DNA of 63,684 nucleotides, filler included, from Collodictyon triciliatum (GCA_043381765.1; 5 parts of 5 records of this genome joined end to end with filler, not necessarily neighbours in it); one strand, 5' to 3'. Shown: positions 165 to 59,736, counted from the whole stretch's first letter. Notes: generated from the sequence alone by a model not told the origin. Program-made: numbers and translations.

Positions 165-1815
<1,651 letters not shown>

Positions 1816-4851: not shown

Positions 4852-9814
<4,963 letters not shown>

Positions 9815-10254: not shown

Positions 10255-10325
10255 TGCATTGTCCGGGAATCGAACCCGGGTCGACAGCTTGGAAGGCTAT
10301 CATGCTGCCACTACACCAACAATGC
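10255..10325 (-). tRNA. trnG: tRNA-Gly (anticodon TCC)
   Basis: Reverse complement is GCATTGTTGGTGTAGTGGCAGCATGATAGCCTTCCAAGCTGTCGACCCGGGTTCGATTCCCGGACAATGCA. It has a 7-bp acceptor stem, anticodon loop CTTCCAA and T-loop GTTCGATTC. A T-run terminator follows a few nt downstream. Confidence 0.97.
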
Positions 10326-16716: not shown

Positions 16717-18361
16717 GGCTCTTGATTATTTCTGTTTGGCGTAGAAAGGTAGATCAAGATTAATTCCTGCCGTGTTTTAAGAAGGGCTCTCCATGGAATA
16801 AAGAACCGATTGCTAGAATAAGCTTATTTCGACTATTCATCAAATAATTATACGAGGCATTATGACCTTCTCTTTGTTTAATGTGTTTCAGGCTCAGCTA
16901 TACACCACCCAGGCCCTTGTCAGAAAGAAAGAGAACTGTCTTGCATACAATACGGAAAAGCATATGGGATGGACAATATTGTGAGTCGTCTGCGGGAATG
17001 TGTCGTATGGGTGTGAAATCAGTGAGGGATTCGCTAGGTGGGCTTGAGCAAACAGAGGCAACTTTGCTAATGCTATCTCTATTTCAGAATTCTCTGCGAT
17101 GTGGTATTTGTTAGAGTCCACCAATTTCTCAAAACACCCCAACAAGAGACCAGACCCGGCATGCTAGCCAGACCAGCACCTTGTAGCTCATTTCCCGCTC
17201 TGCAGGGACTGCCCCAAGGCAGTGGGCAAATGTAAGGAGCAGATCAATTCAGGGAAAAACGGAAAGGCTGAGCAAGTAACCCAACTCTGTAATTGCGTCG
17301 TAGACAAAGACCACCCACGGCCCGGCAAGCTCTTTCGCTTCATTTCGTTTGCGGTCTGTACTCGCGGCCCAGAAAGACAACCCCGAAATTGATCAATTCC
17401 CGGAGAAATATCCATTCCCTGGGGTCTAGTTTATTTTTCTTGTGCAATCACTCAAACATATGTATTTTCAGGATTCACAGAAACGCGTTTTAGCCGAGTA
17501 AAATAGCGACAGGAGTACCCCACGCCAGAATTTCAAAAGAAAATTAGAGTGTTTTGTGCGATAACCCTAACCCATCTGTTCATTGGTTTGAAAATGAAGC
17601 TCTTTTTTTCCTTTGCGTGGTTGAAGGGAAGGAATAAAACTAGGCGAAGGAAAACGCCACTCACCCGCCAACTAATCAAACTCTGGAACTTTTCCAAATA
17701 GGTGTGTATTCTGTGCTGCGCGCGTGCTCATTGGTCAAAACATTTCCTATCTATAGGCTGATTCTATGGAATGAGTTAGGTGGATGGAGAATACGTTGGA
17801 GTGTCGCCGGCCAAAAAAATATGAGTTAATTTCCGTTAGAAACAGGACGCCTGGCGGAAGCACCGGATGACAGTTTTCACCGAACTTCTTGGGTATACAC
17901 AGATTCCCGCAGAGATGAGGTGTTACTGCACATCAGAATCGTTAGCAGAGAAATAACCTCACAATTATATTTATAAATTTATATTAATGTATTTATATTA
18001 TTATTATATCGATATATACGACAAATATTTTATCATGAAAAATAAATATTTATTTTCCAAATTTGAATAAAGACCGATCCGCCCCAATTTTGTTTTCTGT
18101 GGCGGTCTGTCTTTTAATCCGCCTGAAAGTTTAGGCGCTTCAAAGCAAGGAAAAAACGCCACGTCGCCATTGCAACGAAGCTTGAAAGCAGGAAGGCTGC
18201 AGAGGCTCCGTATAAATGATGAAAGTTGGCTCTTAAAAAAATAAAAATAAAAATAAAAATAAAAATAAAAATAAAAATAAAAATAAAAATAAAAATAAAA
18301 ATAAAAATAAAAATAAANNNNNNNNNNNNNNNNNNNNNNNNNNNNNNNNNNNNNNNNNNNN

Positions 18362-18373
18362 TTAATTAATTAA
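18362..18373. other. Artificial scaffold-joining linker TTAATTAATTAA within an N run
   Basis: All-frame stop linker centred in a 100-nt N spacer; it recurs four times. Confidence 0.95.
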
Positions 18374-20414
18374 NNNNNNNNNNNNNNNNNNNNNNNNNNN
18401 NNNNNNNNNNNNNNNNNTTTTTTTTTTTTTCTTTTTTTTCTTTTTTTCTTTTTTTCTTTTTTTCTTTTTTTCTTTTTTTCTTGAAGTCGATCACAAGCCC
18501 ACGGCGGTGCTGAGAGAGCTATCGGGCCCGTGATCTGTGATGATCGCGCGAGTGGATATGTGATCGGCTTTTTATAGGTGAGGCCATGTTTGGCGTAACT
18601 GTGATCGGCGCTGCGTCAAACGAAAGGGAAGTGAAGGGAAAAGCCGATCACGCAGCCCACACAGGCCACAGCCCCAAGGGATTCTGTCGCCCGCGAAGAT
18701 TCAGCCGAGTTGGTGACACTATATGTCTAAAATAGAAAATGATCTAGATCTTTTTATAATTTGGGGTCATTGACGAAATATAGCCACATATGCCATTCCC
18801 TACAACAGATTGAGTGTCGATTCGGTCATCGGAATTGGGATTCAGGCTGATCATGTCTTAATAGTAATTTGTATCTGGAAAACAAATATTTATTGCTCAG
18901 TCTCTTCAATTAAAAATTACTAGTCAAATTATGCGTATATAATCTGTGTAAAATTCGATAAATAATAATACGCATCAAGCCTGTTACTTTAAGGTTGTGT
19001 TGTGGGCTTTTTTTAAGCGATTATTCGTTGGCACATAGTGGCCAGGAAAAGTCTGTAATAAAATGCTAATTAGGGTAAAAGTTGGCACAACCCACAAGCG
19101 GACACTTTTTTAGCCCACAACACCACGCTGGTGGGCGGTTATGACCCTGGCCGATCAAAAATTATTCATTGCAACAAACATACAGCCCACAACTCCCCTC
19201 GACCCGATACACTTTCCCAAGAGCACAATAGTAGCGCACACTCCAGAACAACTCAGACAAAGCAAGCTAATCGCAGGCCCATCTCTAACTTGCTAGACCA
19301 GAACGATGGACGCCCTCGCCAAGAACTCCAACAAGCGCAAGCAGGAAGCTGCCCCCGCGAAGCAACAGCAAGCACTGGTTTGTTGTGCATTTCACACTGC
19401 CGCCGCTCAACACTTGTTTAATTTCTTACAAGGCTGGAGTTCAACGCGAAGTCTTTTATTTTTTTTTATATTTTTTTGAAGTTTGTGTCTGGCCTTATCG
19501 CCCCTTAAAGGGTTAAGAGCTACCACTTTGTGGTGGTTGTGTCCCTGTCAGGGCTGCACCACAACTGATGGCCTGAACAAAAAGGATGACACACATGAAC
19601 AAGGTCATAACTGGTCATCTTTCGCTGGAGCACCAATTAAATTCATATGTTGATTGCGAACTGTCTGTCAGCCTGAATGACTGAGGGGCAATCGATTGTG
19701 CTAATGACTTCACTCTGGCCGCTAGATACCTATAGATACCTATCGAATGGTTATCACACATAAGCTTCTGTGAATAGTCGTATCTTGCCCTCACCTAACT
19801 CGCTCATACTCTGACCCACGTTTTGGCGATACCAGTAAGGCTCATGTAAACCTGACTCTGCCCTAGTTAACCAGGCAGGTATACTGGGATTATGACTATT
19901 TACACAGCATTTTCTCCTTTTCTTGGAAAAATTATCAATCAATTCTACATGCAAACAGTGATGAGCCAAAAAAAAAAACATTTAAAAATAACTTGATACA
20001 CTTCAAAGATTGTATTTTGACATGCGTTCATTTTGCCACTCCAAACAATACCTGTACCATGTCTGCACAAATTGAAAGGGAGAATAAGAAAAAAATCATG
20101 TTTGATTTATTCAGTACTGGACATGTAAAATCGTAGGAGATTGAACAGGACAGCATGACCCCTAGAATAATATATGGAAGCCTTAGTTTTGGTGTAGATG
20201 AACCGAAGAAATACTTCATCTAATATCAAAGAGCGAACATAAGTATTTCTTCTTTTTCTTTTTCTTTTTTTTTTTTTAAAAAAAAAACAGGAATAATGAT
20301 TAAATTTGAAGTGCGGGGGTATTGAGACATATTTACTTTCCTTAATGACTTACAAAAATAATAACTATTAAGACGGGATGGGTTGGTGACTTGCCTTGGT
20401 CGAGTTTAGTATGA

Positions 20415-23190
20415 CTATTTGCCCTCTCCCCATACAGACTCCAACTCCGTTTTGTTTTTCTCACGTTCAGCCTTCTTGTCTTTTCTAACCTCCTCTAAGG
20501 CTCTGCAGTGGCAAAGATGTTAGTGTACGCACAAGATGAAGGAGAATGTAATGTATGACAATACATACAAGGCGGATGGGTGAAGATAAATTGGTATTTC
20601 GAAGAGACATTCACTTACATCTCCTCTTCAGTCTTTTTTAGGGAGACACCCTTTTCTGCGAGCTCAAAGAGTATGAACCGTCTGGCTGTGGTCCCAGAGA
20701 ATTGAGGTTTCTTCAATCCTTGTACCTCCGACTCCGCCGCAGCGATTGGATCTACAGAGTATGAAATTGAGTGGTCTTGAACGCTTACAGACTATCTCAT
20801 CGAATGGCAAAAGTGTTTCCCCTTTCCATTTTCTTCTGAATTTCTCATGTTTTAATGGCCGGGATCATACAAAATACTTTCTTTTTTTTTTTTTTTTGAT
20901 GAATAAAGTTTGCGTGGTGCATATTATCTTACCGTATAATCTTGTGGGTTTGACGAATTGAGGCTCCTTAGTAACAGAGAACATCCCACTACCGATACTC
21001 AGGAGATAATCATAAGCAGTTTTTGCTATTTAAATCACCAAATATGTTTTCATATATAGTTACAGTCACCAAATTCTTTCTCATGAAGAGTGTGAGTGAG
21101 TAGGAGATAGGGCATGTCAAGGAAAACCATCAACAAGAAGAAAAGAATCGGTACAATTGATAATTGCTAAGATGGCTTTAAAAAAAAAGAGAGAAAAGGA
21201 TAGAATAAACGAAAGTATATGATGTATAATATCAACGAGTCAATTTTTACTCCTCCCTCTCCCTCCTCTACACTCTCCTTTGCTTTGAAAATTAAAAGAA
21301 AACAGTAAAAAGTAAAGAAAAAAAAAAAGGAAATGACCTACACACAAACAACAACAAACAACAACAAACAAAACAAACAAAACAAAACAAACAAACAAAA
21401 GCATATTAAAAGACCTTTTGCGCTGTTTGGAAATACGACCAGAATATTACTAAGATAACTTTGTCCAGGCGGGGTGATAATGTTGACATCACTGGTCAAA
21501 TGAACCCCGAGCCATTCATGAACGTCGTCAATTGTGGCATCGTCTGTGAACCCGGAAAGTTCCAAAATATGGTCAGTCTTGGATACCTTTTGGCCTAACA
21601 GAGAGGTAATAGTGGCATTAGAATATTCTACTCTAGCTGCGCTCACACGATATGTGTTCAAAGAGTGGAGGGAGATTGGGCACAAAAGAATAGAAAAGAA
21701 TAGAAAATATTTGAATAGAAAAGAAGCCCTCAGAGCATTTAGGTTTGAATTTAATAACTGAGTGGATGATTTACTTGGTGTGGGTTCAGGATTGTAGTTC
21801 GTTTGAAGGGAATCTACAACAGTATCTTCATCTTGGACTAATTCAACAGGGTATTCTTCACTTCCAAAGGTTCTTGACCGATTTTGAGTGAACCCCCGTC
21901 CTTTTCTTATTACACCAGTGTTTTGAGGGCGAAAACCTTCGTCATAGAGGGGTTTGATTTCCTCTCTGGTCAGTGTGGAATTTACTATGAATTGGGAGGG
22001 CGAGGGTAAAGTGGCAATTATGGGAGGGTTTGATAGGGATATATCGCCATCTTCTTCCCAATTATCTGGTGCATCATCAAGATTTGTGGGCAGAGTATCC
22101 TTGGCAGGTAGAGTTGGCTTATCAACCTGTGCAGGTTCTTTAGGTTGTTGTGAGTGTGTCCGTTTTGCGCTGTGGGATTGATTTCGAGTAGACTTGTCTT
22201 GCTGTCCAGTTTGATGCTTTTTTTCTTCCGAAGCAGTTGATGTAACAAAGTCTGGCTGCTCAGAGCCTAGGCCAAATGTAGACAAGAGCGGTGTTGGTCT
22301 ATATCGATGATATGTATTAGCCAGTAAATATGCTTGTTTTTTTTTTTAAAAAAAAAATAATTAAATAAATCACTATAAGTAGACTAAGCATCATAAAAAT
22401 AGCACGGGGAAGAGAATTATCAAATGAAAATAATACATGTGACATTGAGGTGTCTTCAGGATGTTAATTGCTCGTTGCCCATGACCGACGGATTGGTGTT
22501 TTAGTCCAAAGCGGTCACAGAGTATATGGGTTAGTCTGCGGAGATAAGGGCTAGCAGGAGGTAGTTGCAACTGCTTCTTTGGTCTGTGAGATCGCATATG
22601 ATGAAGGTGAATGAATCATAAGTTGGAAGGGGGAAGACCTTCAGTTTTGAATTTTTGACAATTTTCTGCTGTGTTGCTGAATAGCCTCGGGGGACGAAGG
22701 TTCGAACAAGGCAAAGCGCATGCGGATAAAAGAAAAAGAAAAAGAAAAAGAAAAAGAAAAAGAAAAAGAAAAAGAAAAAGAAAAAGAAAAAGAAAAAGAA
22801 AAAGAAAAAGAAAAAGAGAAAAGAGAAAAGAGAAANNNNNNNNNNNNNNNNNNNNNNNNNNNNNNNNNNNNNNNNNNNNNNNNNNNNNNNNNNNNNNNNN
22901 NNNNNNNNNNNNNNNNNNNNNNNNNNNNNNNNNNNAGAGAGAAAGAGAGAAAGAGAGAAAGAGAGAAAGAGAGAAAGAGAGAAAGAGAGAAAGAGAGAAA
23001 GAGAGAAAGAGAGAAAGAGAGAAAGAGAGAAAAGTAAAAGAGAAAAGAGAAAAGAGAAAAGAGGAAACATGACTTACTTATCTTGCATAAAAACCACAAG
23101 TTGCTTTTCAATCTGCAGAATCGCAAGGCGTGGGCCCTCTGGACTCTGGTCGCACAGTGCATTCCAGAGATCTTGATCAATAGGATCCAT
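20415..23190 (-). CDS. R3HCC1: R3H + RRM-like + coiled-coil protein (R3HCC1-like)
   Basis: R3H domain LPPASPYLRRLTHILCDRFGLKHQSVG, RRM-like DHILELSGF...ILVVFPN, TTARRFI motif, and a terminal coiled coil ending ...ELESVWGEGK*. The start is uncertain (23190 or 23292) and there is a gap in intron 1. Confidence 0.75.
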
Positions 23191-23778: not shown

Positions 23779-24697
23779 TTAGGAGTTTGCTCTGGAGCGA
23801 AGATTGGGTCGCTGATTGGACTTTGGGCGGTTCTTTTGCTGGGCCAGCGGAGAAAGCAGATTACTCCTGGCAGCCGGGGGCTGTGTGTGGGGCTCCTGCT
23901 TGATGGCTGGGATGTAGTCGATGGGGCTGAGCAGACGCGATGGTTTGCTTGCCTGGCGTGAATCCAGTTGATCCCGCGGCTGCGCCTGGGAATGCGCCTG
24001 GGAATGCGCCACGACGGATGGTGACAAAGCGCGCAGGCGATTCTGGGATGGGCGTGAAGGCTGAGGCATTTCTGCGGTCTGGGAGGTGCTTGGAGAAAGG
24101 ACACTTCGCACAGGCTGCGTTCGACGGATGGGCTCCAGACCGCGGGGCCGGGACGATGTGTCGATGCTCAGCGGGTCCACGGGCGGACCGGAAGTGGGCA
24201 GCGCGCATGTTGGGGCATCAAGCAGCGGCTCCAAAGCGCGATGTCGGCCACTTGCGGCTGCATTGTTGTTACTGCTGGTGGCGTTTGCGGAGATTTCGTC
24301 GCCCAAAACGGCTCCTGCTTTGCCTGGCTCGCGGATGGCCGGGGAGATGCCGAGCGGCTCGAGCCTGAGTGCGAGGGAGATCATGGGGGTTAACTTGGGT
24401 TCTTTGTGCCGTGCACGACACTTTTCGACCTGCCGATGCTAAAGGGGAGGGAGTGGCCTGGTTGGTGTATCGGATCGGGTGCTGACCAGACGGTTTTGTT
24501 CTTCTTCTTCTTTTTTTTTTTTTTTTGGGTTGCCAATGCGTATGTTTTTGTGTGGGAAAGAAAAGAAACTAGGAGAGGGAAGGGCGATGAGGAAGTCTAT
24601 GGAGGGGCCCTTACTTCATCCCAGTCCCTGCTTGGCGTTGTTGGGAATCCTTCGTGCTGGATCGACCCCCTTGTAACGCTCGGTTGGAAGCCACGGT
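23779..24697 (-). CDS. 3' exons of an unknown low-complexity protein, 5' part beyond the scaffold end
   Basis: GC-rich ORF 23779-24429 begins at a CAG acceptor (VEKCRARHKEPKLTPMISL...). A phase-compatible upstream exon lies at about 24615-24697. No domain was recognised. Confidence 0.45.
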
Positions 24698-24763
24698 CTG
24701 TGGGCGAAACAAAAACAACACGGTTTTGTGCTCTTAGTCGGGCGGTGGAAGGAGAAGAACCAA

Positions 24764-24859
<96 letters not shown>

Positions 24860-24903
24860 NNNNNNNNNNNNNNNNNNNNNNNNNNNNNNNNNNNNNNNNN
24901 NNN

Positions 24904-24915
24904 TTAATTAATTAA
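24904..24915. other. Artificial scaffold-joining linker
   Basis: TTAATTAATTAA in an N spacer. Confidence 0.95.
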
Positions 24916-25032
24916 NNNNNNNNNNNNNNNNNNNNNNNNNNNNNNNNNNNNNNNNNNNNGTATGTATGTATGTATGTATGTATGTATGTATGTATGTATG
25001 TATGTATGTATGTATGTATGTATGTATGTATG

Positions 25033-25064
<32 letters not shown>

Positions 25065-25080
25065 CAAAGCGATATTGTAC

Positions 25081-28000
25081 CTCAAACATGCCAAAGAAGT
25101 GAAACCAAAGGCTGAAAAAGTCCTCTGGGCTCCATTGTGTTGGGTCTTCACCGAAAAACTTGACGGTCTCATTGTACTGTTGTACCATCTGCGCCATCGT
25201 GCCTGCTACCAGGCGAATAGTCTCATTAGCTCTGAGGACAAACTCCTACAATACACCGAATATGATGACATGATTAGTCCACTGAGCTTATGTTCGTCCC
25301 TTTTATACTTTATAAATCCGGATAGCGCACAGTACTGCGAGGTAGAGGACAAGAAAAAAGAAAAAGAAAGACACAATCCAAAATAAAAAAGTAACAGGAA
25401 GTTATGACGATATCTACAGATATTTCCTCTTTGAATTGAATAAAAGAAAAAAATCTACAGAAATTTTCTTGTTTCGCACCGAAAATTACTTCGTGTATCA
25501 CAAAAATTTACCTTCATCATCACTGAAAAGCCGTCTCTGGGGTCAGTCGTTCCTTTTGCAAGTTCTTCTTGGATAGCCTTGATTAGTGTTCGGGCGTTGT
25601 TCAACGATGCCATCATTTCACTTAAACTGACTGGATTGTCATAATTTATTTTATTTTATTTAGAATGCCAAAATTATATAGAATCACGAGTCATGAATCA
25701 AGAATAAAACCCATCGTAATTTTGGGTTCACCGACTGAATAAGCGTGATTATATTGCGCTATAGAATGCTTCTCTTGATTTCCATCAATTTATGTTGATT
25801 TCGTACAACCTGCGCATGCATCTTGCAAATGAGGCACATCTTCTTGGAATCCAATCAAATCAGATCTTCTCTCGCTCACTACATATGCTATGTAGTGCAG
25901 AAGCGTTATTTTGCTGTTCTGCGCCTTGGTGTCGTGGAGCTTTTTTTTTTTTTGAAGAAAATTGTGAGTACAAATCACGTTGAGTATTCCCCCTTCCCCC
26001 TCCTTTTTTTTTTTTTTTGGAGAAGGTAAATTCTTTTTGAACTTTTAGTTTTAAAACAAAATGGAAGTAATTTGAAACCTTCAAAAGGTAGTTTAATTTA
26101 AATCCCTTAGCAGCCCCTTTATTCAATGAGTTTCCTGCTTGAAGAATAACCTATAACAATGATACATGCCCAATAAAAATGAATAGTTATTCATGACAGT
26201 GGTAAAATATTGTTCACTAAAAATTTGCGTGGCTACAAACAGAAAGCAGGCCAGTAATCTTCTTGCTTTTTTTAAATTCGTCGCACACAATTTTAAGAAG
26301 CTTCACATCCTAATTTTATTACTCATCTTTATTTTGCATAGAAATGGCATGTGGATATGATCAATCATGATTTGGGACAAAAAAGCTTTTTGTAATGATA
26401 CGGAGCATGATACAATTTTTTTGAAGTAATAAGTGGTTGTGAAAGTATGCAAAAAAAAATAAATAATACAAATACGAATGATAATAAAGTAAACCAAAAA
26501 GAATAAGAGATAAAATAAGAAAACCTTGCTAAGGTCCTCCATTTCGTCAGAAAATGAATTTCGAAAAATCCAATATTTAATTCGAAGTTCGATACGTGGA
26601 ATATCATAAAGCTATCACGAAGAGAGTGGATGCATTTATGGTAAGACACATATTAATTATTTTCTTAGACAGATTTACATTTACGCTATTCGAAGCTCAA
26701 TTGAAGTAATTATATGGAAAAATTACAAAACAAAAAAAATGAAAGGAAAGAAAAAGGAGATGTTCTTCACCTGAAGTAAAAGCATTTCAGCTTTTCCTAA
26801 CTTAGCTTTATCTCCTTTAAATTCTTTGATGGCATCGATCTATAAAATATTTGTAAAGGAGCAAGTTATCCCACGTGAATAAATATGCAGGTATCTCAAT
26901 CTGAAAGGATGAAATATTAGACATACTTCCTCTTTAGTGGGAGTACATATCTGCAATGCTTGCAGTTCTTGCTCAGAAAAGTATGAGTCTCTCATACTTA
27001 TGATTCCCAACCGAATCTCTTCATAAGACTTTTTAAAATGAGAGAGCAAAATCCCTAGCATTTTGAAATAATGAATGATACCACACCATTTTTTTTAAAT
27101 AAGGAACAAAATGCGAGCAAAAAGTTTTAAAAAAAATAAACATAAAACACTTCACGTTCGATGAATTAGTAATTTTATCATTTTTTTTTTGTCGTTTATC
27201 TTGATAACTAATTGTAAAGTATTTCTAGATACGTGAGTAAACGTATAGTATATAAAAAATCAAACCTATATTCTGGGCCCTTTTGTAAGAAAGAAACGTC
27301 GCAGCAGCCGGAGTCTGTTCCTTACTTGCTTGCTTGTTTGTTTCTTCGCAAAGTACACAATCAAAAGATTTATTAAAAGCATATTTTGTTAAGTATGTCT
27401 AGCGTTTTAAAAGCTAGTAGAATATATACACGAGTATTTTTCATCCATATCGCTTGATTTACATGTTTTTCCTATGTAAATATTTAATTTTGACTTGCTT
27501 CCAGCCTCTTTAATAGCGAATAATTTTTTATTTTAAAAAACCTTGTGATGTGGCAGCACGTTGGCGTGAAAACAAGTATTCCAACTCATCCATCTGCACG
27601 ACAGCTGGTGCAGATTCTTGTGTAACCTGGATAAAAAGTATATCATCAAGGAAAGTCAAAAAAAAATAATAAAAAATAGAGCCTTCAAGAGTGCTGGTCG
27701 CATAGGATACTTTGTTAACTCACGGATTTCCAAACGGTGTTTTCAATCTCCCCACCCGCCACCGGGGTCCAATGAACCTTCTTTGTTGATGGCCCACTTG
27801 CTACGCATCCGTGATGAATGTTCCACAAAATCGAAAACCAAAGTAAAGAATAGCAAGAAAATCACAGACCTTTGGCAGAACTTGAACCCATGCCGGGAGG
27901 AGGTGGCGGCGGAGGTGGCGGAGGAGGCGGAGGAGCTCCGTTGGGGCCAGACTGGGGCATTTGTATTTGCATTTGCACGGGAACCACAGGGATATTTGTC

Positions 28001-31000
28001 GCATTCGACTCTAGTGTTCCATTTGCTGTTTCTTGTTGCGGCCGGTCTCGAAGTTCTCGAAGTTTTGAACCAAGGACAGAAAGTCTTTCGGTTCTATCGA
28101 GAAGCGGTTGTGAATCAGGAGGAGGAGTTGCTGAAGCTATACGTTTTATAAATAGAAAATCAGGTCGATAAAGAAAGGGAGCTGAAGCACAAATATATGA
28201 AGAATAGAAACAAACTAGAAATAAAAAACAAATAAAAGAGAATACATAAACAAGAGATACTTAGTACGATTATTTTACAACTTATGTATTTCCATCCACA
28301 TATACCATAATAAAAGTATATTTCATATTATGCATTAAATGTTTGCTTAAATATTAATTTAAGTTGTGAATACTTTTCATGGTTTTTGGAGTGAAAGACT
28401 TCAATTGTGGATTATCTAGATTCAGATACTATGTTAACTCAAAATTGGACAAATTCATTTGCGTAGTTCCTACATTATTAGCTGTTTGTAGTTAAGTGAC
28501 ACTAAATTACCTCTTTCCATTTTTTTACGTTCCATGGCTTCTTTGAATAGTTCCTTTTTTGATTTTTGGGAACTCGACTGCTTTTTAATCAAAAGGTAAA
28601 TAATTAATAATATAAATACTTATCAGATAAAGTGATAATGATTATTATATCAAGGGAATAGAGAGAAGATATAAAGATCAAATAAAATAAAAGGAGATAT
28701 CGAAAAAGTTCATAAGAGACAAAGTAAAGTATGATAGATGCTACGAAAACTTACACTATTTAAAAGTGATTTCCCATCCACCTTTTTTACAAGATTAGTG
28801 TTAGATATATGATGAGAAAAATTAGACTTCTGTTTTAAAAATATAAAGAATTCTGAAAATAAAATGCAATTAAAATAAACACCTATCCATATTTACATTA
28901 TTTTTCTGTGCCTTTGATCTATAGTCTTATACTTACACAAGGCCGACCTTCAGATTCTAGTGAATATGTTGTTTGTGAAGAATCAAGAATGGCAGCTGAA
29001 CCTAAGGTGCCTGACCGAATATTGGATGGGTTTCTTTCATTTAAAACCTCATTTCTCGGCTTGAAGGGTGATCCGTCTTTAAACCCAGGAGAGGAAATCG
29101 AAGATGGAGTTGGGAGATTCTCGTTCGCAGGGCTTGTTAAACGATCCATCATCTCAAAGTATTCTTTTCTGTCAATAGTAACTGTGTCCCTATGGTCACC
29201 AAACATCCGCAAAGTCAGGGTAGTGTCTAATAACCCCACGCTTTGTGGTTGAATAGAGATGACAACAGATAAAGAAGGATACATTAACAGTCTCTTAACT
29301 TTATATTTTGAGATATCTAGGCAATCATAGGAAGAAAATTGTAGCATAGTCTAAATGTCTTTTTCTTTTTTCTTTTGAATGTGATTTAGGTTACGATTCT
29401 GAGCGAGGTCTGAGATTCCCTTGGTCAGACGAAAAACCCTCCGGCATATTCAATAGAAGGTTCACAGTTGCATTCTTCATTAATCATTAAAAGATGAATA
29501 AAATATGGGATGGAAATTAGCAAATACATTACAAGTCATACATTTTCATAACTGCTAGTAGTATATTTCGATAAAAAAAGGCGACAAGATGAGACTTTAC
29601 CACATCATTTTCGCTCCAACTCATCATGGTGCGGATAATTGATTCTTCAAATCCCATTTCAATCAAGCTTTTTTGAAGTTCATCAGGCTAGGGACGATAC
29701 GTAAAATTTTAAAAAGCTGACTTTATGTAAAATTAATCTTATTTTTTTCATATATGTTGCACCTAGTTTCAATGAATTCCTTTCGGATAAATCATGCAAT
29801 TTTTTTTAAATAATTTGTGAATTTTTTTGGAAAAGAAAAAAAGAAAAGAAGATATTTTTATTTGAATTCAAAAATAATCGAGCCAAATGTGATAATAAAA
29901 CAAAATAAATTTTAGATAAAAAGAGAATTGGATGAGTTAACAACAGAAATTGAATGGAGAAAGAATAAAAAAGAATAAAAAAGAATAAAAAAGAATAAAA
30001 AAGAATAAAAAAGAATAAAAAAGAATAAAAAAGAATAAAAAAGAGAATAAAAAAGAATAAANNNNNNNNNNNNNNNNNNNNNNNNNNNNNNNNNNNNNNN
30101 NNNNNNNNNNNNNNNNNNNNNNNNNNNNNNNNNNNNNNNNNNNNNNNNNNNNNNNNNNNNNTAAAAAAAAGAGAATAAAAAAAAAGAGAATAAAAAAAAA
30201 GAGAATAAAAAAAAAGAGAATAAAAAAAAGAGAATAAAAAAGAGAAAATAAAATAGAAAGAAAACTGTGAATAGCAAAAACGATCACAATACTGACCGAT
30301 AGTGACGGTTGTATAAATGAATCTTGTCTTGTCAGAGTTCTAGGTCCTTGGGAGCTTTTGTCGCTAGATACTAGCTTGGAAAATATCGAACGCCTCTGCT
30401 TTTTCTTCCTAAAAATAACAATATTTTTTCTTGCAAACAAGATGAAATAAAATCCGGAAATGAAAATATATGACAGTTCTTACTCGATTTTGTGCTCTTC
30501 CCATTTCTGGAGTACTTGATCTATCTCTTCCTTAACCTGAACTAGCAAAACAACGTTGTCGTCGCTTAAAGGTTTTTGAAGGTATTTCTAGGAAATATTG
30601 GGTGAGTAGAGTAATTAATTGAGCAAGAAAAAATCGCCTTTGCAGACTGAATTTTATTTAAATATTTACCAAAAGTCTTTGCCTACACTGTGTACAATAT
30701 GTTACAGCATTTTCTGCCTTAATACCAGTGCTTTTAGATCCTTTAGATGCCTCCTCCAAGGATGACAAGTGCAGAGATAGGGTGACCAGCTAACGTTTTT
30801 CCATGATGGATTAATTACAAGGATATCAAGATAACTCAATAAAAACAATGCAAAACAAAAAAACAAAACAAAAAAACAAAAAAACAAAAACAAAAACAAA
30901 AACAAAAAATAAAAAAAATAAAAAACAAAACAAAAAACAAAACAAAAAACAAAAAAGAAACAAAAACAACAGGAAGGGAAAGATACCTCCAATTGAAATT

Positions 31001-32824
31001 CATCAATATCAAATTTATTTGGGTCTCTTACGGAATTCTGTCTAGCCCTTACCTTTGAAAATATTATAAACAAATTGCAAAATATGGTATTTGAATATCA
31101 TAATATAGAACTTTTGGTTAGTAACATACTTGAGCGCGAGGTGGAGTTGGTATAGGTGCAGGGGTCGGTACGAATGAAGTTTGTTGATTCATCTGCACAT
31201 AATGCGCATTTGTTTGGTATATAGGTGGTTGCACATTTACATATGCAACATGATTTCCTGAATACGAACTACGCCGTGTATTCGGCTCTTCCTATTTTAT
31301 TATTAAGAGGATAACACTGAATATTCATACACATTATATTTATTGTTAATTTGTATATCTATCGACTAAATGGTATTCAATTGTGCATAATAGTTACTAT
31401 TCAAAAATAGAATAAAAAATGCTATTACCGAGGTCTCTGCAGCAGCCCATTCAGGTCTGGATGGTGGTGGAATGAAAAGTCCTAAAAATGATGCACTTTA
31501 ATAGTGGTCACTAAAATATCTTTCGCAATATCCCTTTCAAATCGCATAAATGCCCAGTGTTAAAATGCATGTAAGATTATCTTAATTGCCTACCGGTAGC
31601 CTTCACTTTATCGTAAAATCTTTGTATTTCTGTACCAAGTGGGTATAATTTTAAGCCGCAATAGTAAGATCCAACGATTTATTATTATTATTATTTATTC
31701 ATGCAATATCAGTTCCCATAACAATCCGACGAGAGTGTATCTATCAATACAGATATAGAGGATGGCAACTTACCGTAGAGATGGTGATCTGATTTACTTA
31801 AATATTTCCAATCAGCAAGACTCGTTAATATGGCATCGGTGACATAGAGAGGCTAAACGAAAGAAAAAAAGGATACATAAAAAACACGCATTATTTATGC
31901 TTTACATGTTACAGAAAATTTTAGACACGATACGAACTATTTTCATATTATTGGATATACAAAATAATACAAATGATTCCTTCATTACGAGCATACTGGG
32001 AGTAAATAGCACACTGTAATAAAATTTAGTTACCGTCGACGAATTGGAAATGATACCAAACAGCCGATCTGTCCATTTTTTTCTTGCAAACTCAACCCGA
32101 AACTGATAATGGCTGTTCTGGTACAAGTAGTCGATGATCTGAAAACAGAGATTTATTATAAAGCCTGGTTTGAAACATTTGGATCTATGACCAATTTTTC
32201 AATGCTTGTTTGTTATATCTTATGGGTTATATTCTGAAGCATATGCATGGATGGAGGATACTGTAAGAAAAACTAAGCACATCAAAGAAAAGTATAAAAA
32301 AAATGTTTCTCTGGTCGTTTAAGATGCATATTTTTAGGAGAGCTCTAACTTACATTAATCGCATTCTGGGCGTACTTTGGATTCGGTGATAATACATATG
32401 ACTTCATCGACTGCAACGTGCTATAGGCATATCTGCATATGGGCATGCCATTTTTTTTTGTTACAATGAATATAAAACTAGGCCGAAGTAAAAATACAAT
32501 TTTTGTTTCGTTTTAAATAACACAGATTTGTTCCAAAAGCCTATAAAGCAATGCGTCGAACTGAATAACTGAATAACTGAATAAAATACAATCTGTTTCC
32601 CTAAATGCAGCATCAAAGGAGAAATGGGCGACAAGATACCAAACATTGTAGAAAAGTTTGAGCTTTCTTCTTTTTCTTTCCTTTTCTCTCCTTTTTTCTT
32701 TTTCTTTCTATCAGTCTTACTCTTGTGGTTTCTCTTCAATGGCACGACTCAATCGAAGTACAACGGGCCAGTTCACCTCGGGCTGTTCTCCTCTTCCTAT
32801 AGCCTCTGCAACCATGCGTTCCAT
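25081..32824 (-). CDS. Formin with VHS-GAT-UBA-FH1-FH2 architecture, 3' end cut by the scaffold end
   Basis: FH2 motifs KKVHWTPV..ENTVW, RAQNIGILLSHFK, GNSLNKGAAKGFKLNYLLKLHDTK, TLLHYI, VKFFGEDP...PEDFF; poly-Pro FH1 at about 27890-27935. N-terminal exons are VHS-like, GAT-like and UBA-like (SLIEMGFEES...NDVNATVNLLL). Exons were traced with compatible phases from ATG 32824 into FH2. Confidence 0.85.
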
Positions 32825-33398
32825 TCTACCTAGAGTCATATATTCAACAACATCCTTACTTTCGCTGTTTATTCACAATCATATCTCCAACTTTTTTTTT
32901 TTTTTTGGAAAATCTCCCCAGCGCACAGTCACACATCTGCGAGAACTTCAGCTCTCCCACTTTTCCAGTTGTCTTCATACAGACTTGTAATTCATTCTTT
33001 TTCCCACAAGAGACATATGAGTTTCCATGGACAACAGGTTATCTGCTTTTCTAAGCGATCGCGGGTTTGTGGACAAACGAAGCCATCGATCTCGTACCAG
33101 ATCGGAAAATCCGCAGACAGCCGGACGGCACACACGGGCACAGTCGTTCCACATTAAGAGCAGAGGGCGGTGTATTTTGATCCAGATCGAATGGATCCAT
33201 CTTTGGTGTTTGGGTGCATCGGCCGAGGTTGTGATCCACTTTTTGTAAGCTGTCATCCTAACTCTCAGCCATGGTCTGGGCAAGCGCCATGATCGTATGT
33301 CCATACAACCCCTATGGTTCGCACACAAGCGCAGTGCGATCAAGGCTCTCTCACACTCTTTTACTTTGATCACTTTCCCCTCCGGACTCTTGTCTACG

Positions 33399-33467
<69 letters not shown>

Positions 33468-52329: not shown

Positions 52330-53466
52330 TTTATTTTTATTTTTATTTTATTTTTATTTTTATTTTTATTTTTATTGCATATCTTTCTTTTTTTTAAAAA
52401 AAAACCAGGCCAGGGACATCACTCGCGGATTGATGTATCTCCACGGAAATGGCTCCAAGCTCCCTCTTGGAAATTTGAAATCTACAAATGTTTTGGTAAA
52501 TATTTAGTCGTTGAAAGAGCGAGTAAAATATAACATTTACGTATATGAATATTGAATCATATATTTTGGGTGATCTATTAGATAACTAGCGATAAAACTG
52601 CAAAAATAACAGACTATGTAAGTGAACACTTTTGTTTTCAAAAAAAAACCTAAAAATTACCAATACATCAGGAGTTTGTAGGTATTTAATGAACCATTTT
52701 TGTGTAGTTCTACTCTTCAATTGAATATCGCTGCAGAGTTGTAAAAAAGATCCCGCCTGTGCTTCATGTTTGTTTTTATTACCGATTGATTGATTTATAT
52801 TTCATAATGGATACTATCTCTGTATGCCCCATTTCTAGTTCCCATTTATTTGTTAAATTTTTTTATGGCAGTATCTCTCTCCAGAGTACATCTCAAGAGG
52901 CGAATTAACATATGCGTCAGATATTTATGCGCTTGGTAAAGGCTACATATGATTTGTTTATTTGTTTATTTGTTTATTTGTTTATTTGTTTATTTGTTTA
53001 TTTGTATATTTGTATATTTGTATATTTTATTAAAAGCGCACACTTTCAAGCCAAATAAATTTCAACCGATTTTTTCATCAATTATTCAAACCTTCTGCAC
53101 AAAATTGAAAGGAAGAATAAAAAAAAAAATCAATTATTCAAACCTTGTATGATAAAAAAAAAAACATTCGAAACAAAACGAAACATGACAGGCATAATAT
53201 TCTGGGAGTTGGAAGCCAGGAAAAGTCCATTTTCTGACTGGGAGAATTGTAACCCGAAAAAATTTGTCCGGCTTGTCTCCTACGATAATTTGAGGCCTAC
53301 ACCAATAGAATCGTCGCCCCTTGGGCAAGGATTCAAGTCCCTATACGTACGATGTTGGAGCGGCGAGCAATCATCTCGCCCTTCATGCAGAGCCATTCTG
53401 GAAGAACTGGAGCGTTTGGAACAGACCCTTTCCGGTGAAAACTCTCTGCCGCCGCCCATCGAATAA
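50497..53466 (+). CDS. TKL-like pseudokinase, 5' end in a gap
   Basis: IGFGLTAKMFYG, LAIKVI, LKHQNIISYKG, ILEFAEHRSL, RGLMYLH...LGNLKSTNVL, KITDY, YLSPE, SDIYALGIIFWEL, CWSGEQSSRPS. The reading frame needs a probable GC-AG intron at 50689-51016. Confidence 0.82.
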
Positions 53467-56170: not shown

Positions 56171-59100
56171 TCATTCATCCAAGTGTCTCGGGTTGCCACG
56201 CCCGCTCGAGCGAAAGATTCGCATCATTCTATCATACTCGTTGATTTGGAAGCTTGCAGAGGCCTCCGCATGGGCTGGGGAGGGGCGCAGGCGCATTTCC
56301 ACCGATATCGGAGGAGACGATGACTGTGCAGGTTTGGCATTTGCAAGAGTCCTACCAAGGTGTTTTCATCCTTTTTAGGCTCAGCAAAGAAAGTAAACAG
56401 AAGAAGAAAAATAGGATGTTTATGAAGATTTATAAACTCATAGAAAGAAGGAAGGGAGAAGAGAGAAGAAAAAAAAAAGAAGAGAAAGCGATGTTGTTTT
56501 TGGTATTGTATATGTTTTGAGAGAAAAATACGGTCTGTCTTTAGGCGGGGAAACCCATCTCTGCTGCGATGGCCGGCTCATTGCCGCTGCTGGCAATGGT
56601 GAAGGAGCCGGGCCAAGATGATTTACATAAGATGCTGCTTTCTAAGATGCATAGAAAACGGTGCGTTACTTCAGACTGACATGTGTGCTTGAACAGCACC
56701 GCTTTGCCTGGAATCCTACCTGTATTCTGTCCCGTATCTTGGCCCAACGCTCCTCTTCGGCTGGGTCAAGGTGCAGTGCGGAATGCGGTCGTGTGGACTG
56801 TGGTGGTGCCGGTGCCGGTACTGGTGTGTTAGAAAAGAACGGATCTCCAGGGAACATGGGACGAATATCACTCGGCTGGGTCCTGTGCATTGTCTGTCTG
56901 AGCTGCGCCTGCATGTCCTTGGGACTCACGCTTTCGTCATCTGGTTCGGCCTCCATGTCATGGTGGTATAGCTCGTCTTCATAGTGCCCCTGAGAGCCTG
57001 CCTCGAATTCCAACTCCCCATCTTCTCCGACAGAACGAGCATAGCTCTGGTCGCCAGCATATAAAGCGTTTGTGTTATTACCTCGTATATCACCTTCTTG
57101 ATGAATGTTCTCTTCATCCCCGTTTACGTCTTCGTCGTATTTATATTCTAATTCGTATTCCACGTCTCCTGTGATATTTTCTTGGTGTCCGCCTTCTCCA
57201 GAGTTCCCTGTGACGGTGCTGCGGAATGAATTAAAGGATTGTCTATTTTCAGAACTTTGCCTAAGGTTGCCCTTCTCGCGGTAGTGGTTTGGTTGCGCAT
57301 CATGCTTTCGATCGTATTCTGGTCCAAGTTCGAATTCAGCCTCCGCTTCAACATGTAAATCAACGTCCTGCTCAAACCCATTTCCCCTGTTAGCGTGAGG
57401 ATGTTGCATTTGCTCATTCCTTTGGTTTGTGCGGTCACCAAGACTCCCATGCTTTGTGGTGTCTGAAAGGGATAAACTCTGGGTGGAGCTTGAAGCTATT
57501 GTCGCTGTCGAGAATCGGACTTGAGCGGCACCCAAGTCTGATTTACGGACAAGCACGGGGCTCCGACTAGGAATAGGGTTGGAATTTTGTTGAAACATAA
57601 TATCATCCTTCTTGGCAAACGATGTAACATTGGGATTGGGATTGTGAGGGTGTGGCTGTGGCTGTGGCTGTGGCTGTGGCTGTGGTGTGTCTTTGCTTGG
57701 CTTTTGATTGGGCGAGGGGCTATGGCGCAGTGGGTTTCCTTCATTTGTGTTGGAAGCATAACCAATGCTGTTTGTTGTCAACGAAATGGGCCTTTGGATG
57801 GGTTCATATGGCTCAAGAGAATCGAATTTGAGGGATAAGAGTTCCTGGGCGCGTCTTGTCAACCGAACAAGCTCACTTTCTGTGGCCACGTCCATGTCCA
57901 AAGGAAATCGAACCGGCTCTGCTGCTTTTGGTATATTTTCTATCGCTGGTGGTGATGTATGGCCAGTTGTTTTGCTGATAGATGATAGGATATCTGGTTT
58001 ATGAAGAAGTGTTCCCCTTCCTGGAGAAGTTGGTGTTAAGGTCGGTTTTGTTGTCTGCGGATTCATTCGAGATATGGCTTCTTTTTGAAATAAATCAAGC
58101 TCTCTGAGTTGCTTGCGAAGTTTCTCTCCTAAATCTTCGTCGGGTTCATATTGTAAGGGTGATATAATGGCAATATCTGTTACTGATTTGTATGATGTCT
58201 GCTCTCTCTTGGGCGGGATAACATCGTATTGGAAAGTAAATGATTCCCGCTCTGGTGCTATTCTAGTCAAAGGGTAGAATTCTTTTCGACTATCATAATT
58301 CTACATTATGATGAAATAAGTTACGAAACCGAAATATGTATATATATATTGATCGATTTATTGTGACATATTTCATTAGAGACAAGCGTGGTTTATGTTC
58401 GATATAGAAAGTGATGATGTAACAATTAAATGTTGTACATGTGACTCATCCACGAATTTTGTCTGTATGATGGGCTCAAATTCATATTTTGAAGATGAAT
58501 TTGCCATAGACGAGAGTAAAGTCCGGTCTAGAGGAGATATCCTAATCTATGTGATTTTAAACATGAGGACAGAGAAAATCAGGGGTCGATGAGGCAACAT
58601 GGAAAATTATTAGGTAAAGCACCGATATTTGTGTGAGAGAAAAACAGTAAAAAGGAACCTTGAGCTGTCCGACATTTTGATTCCTAAAGTTTACTAAATG
58701 GTACCAGCCGTTGATTTCATGCAGCGCAGAAAAAAGAGGAGACAAATCGACCTTTTTTTTTTTTAGATGATTTTTTTGGTATTGTTTTATTCAAATATCT
58801 TTGATGAAAGATATATCTGTATGTTATTAGGTTGATTCAAGCATTTGTTATGAATTCTTTTCAAAAAGAAGAATATTTTCAACTGAAATATGTATTTCAA
58901 TCATATTTTTCATTAATATTTCTAGAATGAAAACCTTTGCTGACCCCAGAGCTTGGTCATCATTAGGAAAAGAATTATGCCCTCGACTTACTAACTCAAA
59001 TGGTTGCTCATCATTAAGTTTATGCCAAATTCGAAAGCATATCGGATTCGACTTTTAAATTGAAGAATTCAAATTTTAATATATTTTTTCGAAATGACAC

Positions 59101-59340: not shown

Positions 59341-59549
59341 TCTTTCAGCGTTCCTGAGAATAATTTATTTAAAAGCAACTCTTTTATGTTTTATGTTTTA
59401 TGTTTTATGTTTTATGTTTTATGTTTTATGTTTTATGTTTTATGTTTTATGTTTTATGTTTTATGTTTTATGTTTTATGTTTTATGTTTTATGTTTTATG
59501 TGTTTNNNNNNNNNNNNNNNNNNNNNNNNNNNNNNNNNNNNNNNNNNNN

Positions 59550-59561
59550 TTAATTAATTAA
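59550..59561. other. Artificial scaffold-joining linker
   Basis: TTAATTAATTAA in an N spacer. Confidence 0.95.
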
Positions 59562-59736
59562 NNNNNNNNNNNNNNNNNNNNNNNNNNNNNNNNNNNNNNN
59601 NNNNNTGTTTTTGTTTTTGTTTTTGTTTTTGTTTTTGTTTTTGTTTTTGTTTTTGTTTTTGTTTTTGTTTTTGTTTTTGTTTTTGTTTTTGTTTTTGTTT
59701 TTTACTGATTTGGACATTTCATCAAAATTTTAGAAG

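What the first reader, a model, noticed from the sequence alone, without database searches (positions are those of the whole stretch)
25081..32824. Formin fused to a TOM1/GGA-like VHS-GAT module and a UBA domain: candidate ubiquitin-directed actin nucleator
Seen: a phase-consistent GT-AG exon chain runs from ATG 32824 without a stop. It passes through a VHS-like region (MERMVAEAIGRGEQPEVNWPVVLRLSRAIEE...NPKYAQNAINIIDYLYQNSHYQFRVEFARKKWTDRL...LADW...FYDKVKATGLFIP; about 31430-32824). Next come a GAT-like helical region (YCTQCRQRLLKYLQKPLSDDNVVLLVQVKEEIDQVLQKWEE; about 30484-30790) and a UBA domain (LQKSLIEMGFEESIIRTMMSWSENDVNATVNLLL; about 29438-29688). Poly-Pro FH1 and a canonical FH2 follow. 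No GBD/FH3 autoinhibitory region is visible. Established: VHS-GAT is the ubiquitin-cargo-binding module of TOM1/GGA endosomal adaptors, UBA binds ubiquitin, and FH1-FH2 nucleates actin. I do not know of this combination among described formins, but that rests on recall and not on a search. Inference: the protein is an ESCRT-0-like adaptor that builds actin on ubiquitinated endosomal or phagosomal cargo.
Basis: partly seen in the sequence, partly recalled or inferred. Interest (0 to 1): 0.85.

Follow-up and report, generated by a model that had tools for sequence, protein, structure and literature searches.

The report
Formin gene with VHS-like, UBA-like front
A many-exon eukaryotic gene model encodes a genuine actin-assembling formin whose front end seems to carry ubiquitin-adaptor-type modules instead of the usual Rho-binding region, but whether the two halves form one transcript could not be tested here.

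Summary
The exon chain is real. There are 29 minus-strand exons, all 28 introns are GT-AG, and the 1022-codon frame has a stop only at its end. Codon bias learned from a neighbouring gene favours the proposed frame in 26 of 29 exons, and in 12 of 13 N-terminal exons.

FH1 (13 prolines) and a complete, colinear FH2 are confirmed.

The tools refuse spliced sequence, so the N-terminal domains could only be tested exon by exon:
- **VHS:** 1 of 6 exons hits Pfam VHS, at 12.6 bits against a cutoff of 29.8, and at the register expected for an N-terminal VHS.
- **UBA:** one exon hits UBA_7 at 12.4 bits.
- **GAT:** no profile support.

Both hits are below threshold. They are notable only because these families were named beforehand.

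Single-transcript status is untested. The internal N gap lies inside one A-rich repeat array. The gene's 3' end abuts a six-frame-stop linker, so its C-terminus is unknown.

No VHS, ENTH or UBA formin appeared in seven literature searches or five formin surveys. Verdict: probably a new formin architecture, about 50% as stated. Interest is moderate.

The parts
31429..32824 (-). Exons E1-E6 (32824-32721, 32432-32354, 32138-32034, 31852-31774, 31629-31594, 31481-31429), residues 1-152: VHS-like N-terminal domain. The start ATG is at 32824; other in-frame ATGs lie at 32839 and 32815.
   Evidence: GT-AG chain. In-frame codon score is best in 5 of 6 exons. E3 hits Pfam VHS at 12.6 bits, E 0.13, exon residues 1-34 on profile 66-99 of 141. 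The other five exons have no hit.
30987..31291 (-). Exons E7-E8 (31291-31130, 31052-30987), residues 153-228: Pro/Gln-rich linker
   Evidence: No Pfam hit.
30484..30789 (-).
   Evidence: Coding in frame. No Pfam, PDB or other profile hit. The GAT resemblance is by eye and recall only.
30297..30408 (-). Exon E11, residues 303-340: basic/Ser-rich linker with GTCAGT donor, ending in phase 0
29688..30296 (-). Intron 11 (609 nt as assembled), holding the plain 100-N gap 30062-30161
   Evidence: The gap is flanked on both sides by related A-rich arrays: AAAGAATAAA x10 at 29960-30061 and AAAAAAAAGAGAATA x6.2 at 30163-30253.
29395..29687 (-). Exons E12-E13 (29687-29601, 29474-29395), residues 341-396: UBA-like module split by intron 12
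   Evidence: E12 hits Pfam UBA_7 at 12.4 bits, E 0.16, residues 6-16 on profile 6-16 of 48. E13 has no hit. E12 opens at an AG acceptor with no in-frame Met ahead of its first helix.
28511..29240 (-). Exons E14-E16 (29240-28937, 28829-28755, 28580-28511), residues 396-546: Ser/Pro-rich linker. E15 is a 75-nt phase-0 exon that could be skipped and has a negative coding score.
   Evidence: No Pfam hit. No homologue for E14.
27870..28136 (-). Exon E17, residues 546-635: FH1 with one run of 13 prolines (residues 614-626)
25081..27800 (-). Exons E18-E28 (27800-27724, 27626-27542, 27343-27266, 27054-26927, 26839-26771, 26611-26525, 26309-26241, 26150-26079, 25939-25810, 25630-25512, 25245-25081), residues 635-994: complete FH2 domain
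   Evidence: Colinear exon-level Pfam FH2 hits reach profile position 372 of 372. The spliced model aligns to formin FH2 domains at 112-143 bits. Atlas places E28 with FH2 clusters in 27 of 30 hits.
24860..24959 (.). Join of 44 N + TTAATTAATTAA + 44 N just past the last FH2 exon, flanked by unlike microsatellites: (AAAG)24 at 24763-24859 and (GTAT)26 at 24960-25062
   Evidence: Reading it as an arbitrary contig join is from recall of that linker convention.
24611..24697 (-). Doubtful terminal exon E29 (28 codons + TAA), lying beyond the linker join
   Evidence: AG acceptor and phase fit. phmmer alignments run 10-17 residues into it. But the in-frame codon score is the worst of the three frames, and it has no Pfam hit.

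Best explanation
One eukaryotic gene on the minus strand encodes a roughly 1000-residue formin. It has at least 28 exons, from 32824 to 25081, and its 3' end is lost at a contig join.

The C-terminal half is a standard actin-assembly engine. A short FH1 (one 13-proline tract) would recruit profilin-actin, and a complete FH2 would dimerise, nucleate filaments and ride their barbed ends.

The N-terminal 400 residues are not the usual Rho-GTPase-binding GBD/FH3. They begin with a VHS-like helical domain at the very N-terminus. A Pro/Gln-rich linker follows, then a helical stretch that may be a GAT-type bundle, then a UBA-like three-helix module.

Shown: the exon chain, its coding character, FH1 and FH2.

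Weakly shown: VHS-like and UBA-like identity.

Inferred: GAT identity, one transcript, and the mechanism. In that mechanism the front end docks on ubiquitinated membrane cargo or on TOM1-type endosomal partners. The formin would then be placed, and perhaps activated by clustering, on endosomes or phagosomes rather than by a Rho GTPase.
For: Exon chain: 28 of 28 introns are GT-AG, and the frame is open with a single terminal stop.

Coding character: the in-frame codon score is best in 26 of 29 exons and in 12 of 13 for E1-E13. Only 1 of 84 intron-frame scores is positive.

FH2: 5 of 11 exons hit Pfam FH2 colinearly, and the unmatched exons fill the profile gaps to within a few residues. The model aligns at residues 625-1004 at 142.6 bits.

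VHS: the only family that E3 hits among 24,736 is VHS. Protein residues 62-95 fall on profile positions 66-99, so the profile start falls at the protein's N-terminus. For a family named in advance, E 0.13 corresponds to p of about 5e-6 per exon, or about 3e-5 over the six exons tried.

UBA: E12 hits UBA_7 at E 0.16.

One gene:
- All exons lie on the same strand.
- E11 ends and E12 begins in phase 0.
- E12 opens at an acceptor with no in-frame Met before its first helix, so it needs an upstream exon.
- The two in-frame-candidate ATGs between E12 and the gap run into stops or would leave a 34-nt intron (read).
- The gap is flanked by related A-rich arrays.
- GC stays at 0.12-0.48 inside the locus, whereas the GC-rich islands (0.50-0.63) lie only outside its two ends.
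- Both halves share the same fine exon grain, with mean exon lengths of 93 and 115 nt. Neighbouring genes have 1-3 kb exons.
Against: VHS and UBA:
- Both hits are far below Pfam's curated cutoffs (12.6 against 29.8 bits; 12.4 against 27).
- Their E-values match those of six plainly chance hits in the same 28 exon queries: DUF494, Gp45_2, DUF7156, Taeniidae_ag, GEMI5_RBS and Arm-DNA-bind_3.
- 5 of 6 VHS exons gave no hit, and so did E13.

GAT: E8, E9 and E10 gave no hit.

Other searches:
- Exon-level PDB searches with E1, E3, E10 and E12 returned no VHS, GAT or UBA chain.
- The Atlas look-alikes of E3 are ARM/HEAT-type repeat clusters scoring 0.78-0.83, and none is VHS.
- No protein with a similar E14 or E3 was found.
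- None of the 5 formins nearest in E26 carries VHS.

One gene:
- No transcript evidence was obtained.
- The E11-E12 intron holds a gap of unknown size and has a weak GTCAGT donor.
- E1-E11 (340 residues) could be a stand-alone TOM1-sized protein.
Confidence: 0.5

Rival explanations
1. There are two neighbouring genes on the same strand. One is a TOM1-like VHS(-GAT) adaptor (E1-E11) whose last exon and 3' end lie in or beside the N gap. The other is a short formin (UBA-like, linker, FH1, FH2) whose first exon also lies in the gap. The fusion would then be an artefact of chaining GT-AG sites across an assembly gap.
For: - The gap is of unknown size and sits exactly between the two halves.
- The donor of E11 is weak (GTCAGT), and the frame stays open into the intron, so a longer terminal exon cannot be excluded.
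- Phase agreement at this one junction is a 1-in-3 event.
- VHS-GAT adaptors are normally stand-alone proteins (recalled).
- No fused orthologue was found.
Against: - E12 is an internal-type exon, with an acceptor and no usable Met before its first helix.
- No plausible first exon lies between E12 and the gap (read).
- The gap flanks are related A-rich arrays, which suggests a collapsed repeat and not missing genes.
- As assembled, only 609 nt would have to hold a 3' UTR, an intergenic spacer and a promoter.
- There is no GC-rich island like those at the two ends of the locus.
Confidence: 0.27
2. It is one gene, but an ordinary formin with a lineage-specific helical N-terminus, for instance a degenerate armadillo-type GBD/FH3. 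The VHS, GAT and UBA resemblances are then chance or too decayed to bind ubiquitin.
For: - The domain hits are sub-threshold and at the noise level by E-value.
- The Atlas neighbours of E3 are ARM/HEAT-like repeats, although at scores below 0.9.
- GAT has no profile support.
- The PDB exon searches were blank.
Against: - Chance hits would have to fall on just the two families named in advance, at about 5e-6 each per exon, with the VHS hit also in N-terminal register.
- No Drf_GBD or Drf_FH3 hit appeared in the 17 exon queries upstream of FH2.
- By eye, the VHS helix pattern and the UBA Met-Gly-Phe loop are present. Both motifs are recalled, not computed.
Confidence: 0.15
3. The scaffold is misjoined at 30062-30161, so two unrelated loci were brought together by repeat-rich ends.
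For: The window is full of gaps (16 N runs) and simple repeats. Four of its joins are linker-type joins.
Against: This gap is a plain 100-N scaffold gap, not a linker join. Strand, order, phase and the repeat family on both flanks all agree across it.
Confidence: 0.06

Closest known systems
Formins with non-canonical N-termini: plant class II PTEN-formins, class III RhoGAP-formins and the moss Sec10-formin For1F
   Same: An FH1-FH2 engine is joined to a membrane- or trafficking-targeting module in place of GBD/FH3. P0002, one of the nearest FH2 relatives found, is a PTEN_C2-FH2 protein. The surveys stress frequent domain shuffling in formins (passages of PMC2386819 and of bioRxiv 10.1101/2020.06.12.142943). 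For1F was seen only as a title and abstract start.
   Different: Here the partner would be VHS(-GAT)+UBA. That combination is not mentioned in the main text of any of the five formin surveys or reviews searched.
TOM1 / Tom1-like (TOL) VHS-GAT adaptors, the ancestral ESCRT-0 (recalled)
   Same: A VHS-like domain sits at the extreme N-terminus and is followed by a Pro-rich linker and a helical segment in the GAT position.
   Different: - The VHS is only weakly detected, and the GAT is not detected by any profile.
- TOM1 proteins end in a clathrin- and partner-binding tail, not in UBA-FH1-FH2.
- No clathrin-box, PTAP or NPF motif was found in the model (motifs recalled).
Diaphanous-related formins (mDia, DAAM, FMNL; Dictyostelium and fungal GBD/FH3 formins)
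   Same: FH1 lies directly upstream of a complete FH2. The nearest Atlas clusters for E28 are chordate FH2 fragments and a diaphanous cluster.
   Different: No GBD/FH3 hit and no DAD-type motif were found. However, the true C-terminus is missing at the contig join, so absence of DAD is not established.
Endosomal actin nucleation by recruited machines: Spire-FMN on Rab11 vesicles, WASH on endosomes, RhoB/RhoD-Dia on endosomes, TOM1-myosin VI (all recalled)
   Same: The proposed outcome is the same: actin filaments built on sorting endosomes next to ubiquitin-cargo adaptors.
   Different: In those systems adaptor and nucleator are separate proteins, joined by GTPases or scaffolds. Here they would be a single polypeptide.

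Membership tests
Formin (FH2 protein) | Complete FH2 domain | tested here: met
   Exon-level Pfam FH2 hits at profile positions 88-129, 154-180, 205-232, 233-273 and 318-372 of 372, summing to 117 bits. The spliced model, residues 625-1004, aligns to the FH2 of P0002 at 142.6 bits, E 3e-45.
Formin (FH2 protein) | Proline-rich FH1 directly upstream of FH2 | tested here: met
   A run of 13 prolines at residues 614-626, 9 residues before the start of the FH2 exon set.
Formin (FH2 protein) | Actin nucleation and processive barbed-end binding | not testable with these tools
   Needs pyrene-actin or TIRF assays.
Diaphanous-related formins | N-terminal GBD/FH3 (DID) | tested here: inconclusive
   0 of the 17 exon queries upstream of FH2 hit Drf_GBD or Drf_FH3. 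But exon-level scanning detected only 5 of 11 exons of the true FH2.
Diaphanous-related formins | C-terminal DAD | tested here: inconclusive
   No [MLV]DxLL motif in the model (motif recalled). The real C-terminus is unknown, because the contig ends 120 nt after the last FH2 exon.
TOM1/TOL VHS-GAT adaptors | N-terminal VHS domain | tested here: inconclusive
   E3 hits PF00790 at 12.6 bits, E 0.13, against a curated cutoff of 29.8, in correct N-terminal register. The five other exons have no hit. The spliced domain could not be submitted.
TOM1/TOL VHS-GAT adaptors | GAT three-helix bundle after the VHS | tested here: inconclusive
   No Pfam or PDB hit for E8, E9 or E10. The resemblance is by eye only.
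TOM1/TOL VHS-GAT adaptors | Binding of ubiquitin and endosomal partners | not testable with these tools
   Needs pull-downs.
GGA adaptors | Hinge plus C-terminal GAE ear | tested here: not met
   No ear-domain hit in the 28 exon queries. The C-terminal half is FH1-FH2.
ESCRT-0 (Hrs/Vps27, STAM/Hse1) | FYVE, UIM or SH3 modules after the VHS | tested here: not met
   No such Pfam hit in the 28 exon queries. No UIM-type motif by regex (motif recalled).
UBA domain proteins | UBA three-helix fold | tested here: inconclusive
   E12 hits UBA_7 at 12.4 bits, E 0.16, against a cutoff of 27, over residues 6-16 only. The domain is split by intron 12, and the joined form could not be scanned.

The most novel reading that the evidence does not exclude
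This is a previously undescribed formin class. A TOM1-type ubiquitin-cargo sorting module (VHS, GAT-like helices, UBA) replaces the Rho-GTPase-binding GBD/FH3. Actin filament assembly would then be placed and switched on by ubiquitinated endosomal or phagosomal cargo, with adaptor and nucleator in one polypeptide.
Probability: 0.33. Interest if true: 0.7.

Novelty: new variant of a known kind. Interest (0 to 1): 0.45.

Why it matters
Formins are normally switched on by Rho GTPases. Actin on sorting endosomes is normally made by machines that are recruited separately.

A natural fusion of a ubiquitin-cargo adaptor front end to FH1-FH2 would be a one-protein link between cargo ubiquitination and filament assembly. 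It would also be a new entry in the catalogue of formin architectures, and a ready-made tool for asking whether clustering on ubiquitinated cargo is enough to activate a formin.

If the two halves turn out to be separate genes, what remains is an ordinary short formin next to a TOM1-like gene.

Tried and rejected
- **Whole-genome searches:** no genome is held for this window, and the metagenome locus gave no handle.
- **RNA evidence:** The look-up of sequencing runs was busy twice. It then listed no RNA holder. One run of uncertain kind (X1) holds 0.28 of the sampled words of 25081-29700. That is close to the roughly 0.31 I compute for a fully spliced transcript, but the run was never laid, so it counts for nothing.
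- **Read laying:** two requests were turned back for a short piece between N runs and for a microsatellite. No splice junction was therefore observed.
- **Homologue searches:** E14 gave none, the E3 region gave 1 candidate and no hit, and a 35-aa query was too short.
- **Exhaustive search with E26:** 6 hits, of which 5 are formins without VHS and 1 is an unrelated FG-GAP protein.
- **PDB searches with single exons:** E3, E10 and E1 gave nothing. E12 hit only designed repeat proteins and RecX.
- **Atlas:** E3 gave generic helical-repeat clusters below 0.9. E28 gave FH2 clusters only.
- **One-frame read-through of the VHS exons:** I did not recode the stops.
- **Metagenome scan with E28:** two unrelated formin fragments at 36% identity. 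A first try with E3 was too short.
- **Taxon:** the dynein exon is only 25-31% identical to every listed dynein, so it gave no placement. Rfam and tRNA scans found only a tRNA-Gly. A guess of Physarum had no support.
- **Script box:** it holds no profile library.
- **Supplements of the formin surveys:** these are closed, and they could list a VHS-formin that the main texts do not mention.
Full report
**What is in the sequence**

Read on the minus strand, the region gives a chain of 29 exons:
- E1 32824-32721
- E2 32432-32354
- E3 32138-32034
- E4 31852-31774
- E5 31629-31594
- E6 31481-31429
- E7 31291-31130
- E8 31052-30987
- E9 30789-30670
- E10 30587-30484
- E11 30408-30297
- E12 29687-29601
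- E13 29474-29395
- E14 29240-28937
- E15 28829-28755
- E16 28580-28511
- E17 28136-27870
- E18 27800-27724
- E19 27626-27542
- E20 27343-27266
- E21 27054-26927
- E22 26839-26771
- E23 26611-26525
- E24 26309-26241
- E25 26150-26079
- E26 25939-25810
- E27 25630-25512
- E28 25245-25081
- E29 24697-24611 (doubtful)

All 28 introns begin with GT and end with AG. The 3069-nt CDS has one stop, at its end.

**Is the chain more than chance?**

I trained a codon log-odds table on an independent gene, the 3.1-kb dynein exon at 34936-38052. The background was this locus's own introns, so the intron scores are partly circular. The results:
- The proposed frame scores best in 26 of 29 exons, and in 12 of 13 for E1-E13. 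At one chance in three per exon, 12 of 13 has a probability of about 2e-5.
- The exceptions are E6, E16 and E29. E15 is best in frame but negative, and as a 75-nt phase-0 exon it could be skipped.
- Only 1 of 84 intron-frame scores is positive.
- Exon GC is 0.27-0.56, against 0.20-0.38 for introns.

The N-terminal exons are therefore coding in the stated frame, not just open by choice of splice sites.

**The formin half**

Spliced sequence cannot be handed to the database tools, so I scanned exons singly.
- Five of the 11 FH2 exons hit Pfam FH2, strictly in order: E21 at 88-129, E23 at 154-180, E25 at 205-232, E26 at 233-273 and E28 at 318-372 of 372. Their scores of 15.9, 15.1, 23.9, 31.9 and 30.6 bits sum to 117 bits.
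- E27 gave no FH2 hit.
- The unmatched exons have the lengths needed to fill the profile gaps: E22 and E24 are 23 residues each for 24 positions, E27 is 40 for 44, and E18-E20 are 80 for 87.
- Inside the script box, the spliced model aligns over residues 625-1004 with the FH2 of P0002 (142.6 bits), and with P0005 and P0003 at 112-138 bits.
- Junctions with unusual GTTTxx donors (E20/E21, E24/E25, E25/E26) are validated by this contiguity.
- FH1 is a single run of 13 prolines.
- The Atlas placed E28 with FH2 clusters in 27 of 30 hits.

The formin identity is not in doubt.

**The N-terminal modules**

I made 28 exon-level Pfam queries in all.

*For the reading:*
- E3 hit VHS and nothing else: 12.6 bits, E 0.13, exon residues 1-34 on profile positions 66-99 of 141.
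- E3 covers protein residues 62-96, so the profile start falls at the protein's first residues. VHS domains always sit there (recalled).
- E12 hit UBA_7 at 12.4 bits, E 0.16, over residues 6-16.
- An hmmscan E-value is the per-family p-value times 24,736 families. For families named in advance, these hits therefore correspond to about 5e-6 to 6e-6 per exon, which is why I give them weight.
- By eye, the VHS helix pattern and the Met-Gly-Phe loop of UBA are present. This rests on recalled consensus, not on a computation.

*Against the reading:*
- Both scores are far below the curated cutoffs (29.8 and 27).
- Six unrelated families scored at the same E-value level (0.03-0.23) in the same queries.
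- The other five VHS exons, E13, and the putative GAT exons E8-E10 gave nothing.
- Single-exon PDB searches gave no VHS, GAT or UBA chain.
- The Atlas neighbours of E3 are generic ARM/HEAT-type clusters at 0.78-0.83.

Exon-level sensitivity is poor even for the true FH2 (5 of 11), so the blanks weigh little.

No Drf_GBD or Drf_FH3 hit appeared in the 17 exon queries upstream of FH2. No DAD-like motif is in the model, but the C-terminus is missing.

**One gene or two?**

No transcript evidence could be obtained.
- The run search listed no RNA holder.

What bears on the question is indirect.

*For one gene:*
- All exons lie on the same strand, and the phase is 0 on both sides of intron 11.
- E12 starts at an acceptor with no in-frame Met ahead of its first helix, so it is not a first exon.
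- The two ATGs between E12 and the gap either run into a stop or would need a 34-nt intron, against a minimum of 69 nt in this gene.
- The plain 100-N gap is flanked by related A-rich arrays, AAAGAATAAA x10 and AAAAAAAAGAGAATA x6.2. That suggests a collapsed repeat.
- The GC-rich islands lie only beyond the two ends of the locus (0.50 at 33000-33399 and 0.55-0.63 at 23800-24599), and none lies inside.
- Both halves share a fine exon grain, while neighbouring genes have 1-3 kb exons.

*Against one gene:*
- The gap size is unknown.
- The E11 donor is weak (GTCAGT), and the frame stays open into the intron.
- E1-E11 would make a plausible stand-alone 340-residue adaptor.
- No fused orthologue was found.

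I put one transcript at roughly 0.6-0.65.

**The 3' end**

Just past E28 the sequence runs into (GTAT)26. It then meets a join of 44 N, TTAATTAATTAA and 44 N, with an unlike (AAAG)24 array on the far side.

From recall, such six-frame-stop linkers mark arbitrary contig concatenation. The same join occurs at three other places in the window.

E29 lies beyond this join and has the worst in-frame codon score of its three frames. Alignments do run 10-17 residues into it. I treat the C-terminus as unknown. The FH2 itself is complete.

**Comparison and novelty**

Seven full-text searches found no paper describing a formin with VHS, ENTH, GAT or UBA. The one paper with 'UBA domain' and FH2, on FHOD3, was seen only as a title and abstract start.

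Term searches inside five formin surveys or reviews found no occurrence of VHS, ENTH or UBA in the main text:
- PMC2386819
- PMC5628938
- PMC5047451
- bioRxiv 10.1101/2020.06.12.142943
- PMC3820618

Their supplements are closed and could differ. These same papers stress that formin domain shuffling is common (PTEN, RhoGAP, Sec10, PDZ, PH). A new partner is therefore a new variant of a known kind, not a new kind of system.

The organism could not be placed. The neighbouring dynein-like exon is only 25-31% identical to every listed dynein, and no genome is held.

**Verdict**

- This is certainly a real, complete FH1-FH2 formin.
- Its front end is probably VHS-like and UBA-like.
- GAT is unproven.
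- The fusion is plausible but untested.

Overall, I give the stated architecture about 0.5, and moderate interest (0.45).

Noticed in passing
window 34256-38055 (+): A dynein-heavy-chain-like gene is transcribed divergently from the formin. One 1039-codon exon holds the end of the linker (DHC_N2 positions 320-403), AAA1, AAA2, a lid and AAA3. It is only 25-31% identical to all 120 listed dyneins. There is no room for a tail upstream, since the formin ATG is 1.4 kb away. A SUZ-domain gene starts at 40551, so it looks truncated or highly aberrant.
   Followed up: partly
window 18318-18417, 24860-24959, 44055-44154, 59506-59605: Four joins have the form 44 N + TTAATTAATTAA + 44 N, which gives stops in all six frames. 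They are distinct from the plain 100-N gaps. They probably mark arbitrary contig concatenation, so adjacency across them should not be trusted.
   Followed up: partly
window 23800-24600: A GC-rich island (0.55-0.63 against about 0.33 for the surroundings) carries long open frames on several frames of both strands. Its nature is unknown: a low-complexity Ser/Pro-rich exon, a promoter island or a repeat.
   Followed up: no
window 25081-27626 (-): Six of the eight donors from intron 19 to intron 26 are GTTTxx or GTTGxx rather than GTAAG. Three of these junctions are validated by contiguous FH2 profile coordinates. This organism therefore tolerates T-rich donor sites.
   Followed up: partly
window 40551-41636 (+); 1211-1543 (-); 10255-10325 (-): Other genes in the window: a SUZ-domain protein (42.5 bits), adenylate kinase exons (62.9 bits), and a tRNA-Gly(TCC).
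   Followed up: yes
window 52400-53466 (+): Open frames that look by eye like the catalytic loop and C-lobe of a TKL-type protein kinase. The one piece scanned (53059-53463) gave no Pfam hit at E 0.001.
   Followed up: partly
window 56669-58300 (-), 4855-5949 (-), 21341-22345 (-): Three long single-exon open frames (544, 365 and 335 codons), rich in Pro, Gln and Ser, have no Pfam family. They contrast with the finely split formin gene.
   Followed up: partly
L001 773-922; L002 1380-1529: Two short metagenome contigs encode intron-bearing FH2 fragments that are 36% identical to E28. They come from some other, GC-richer eukaryote and are not orthologues.
   Followed up: partly
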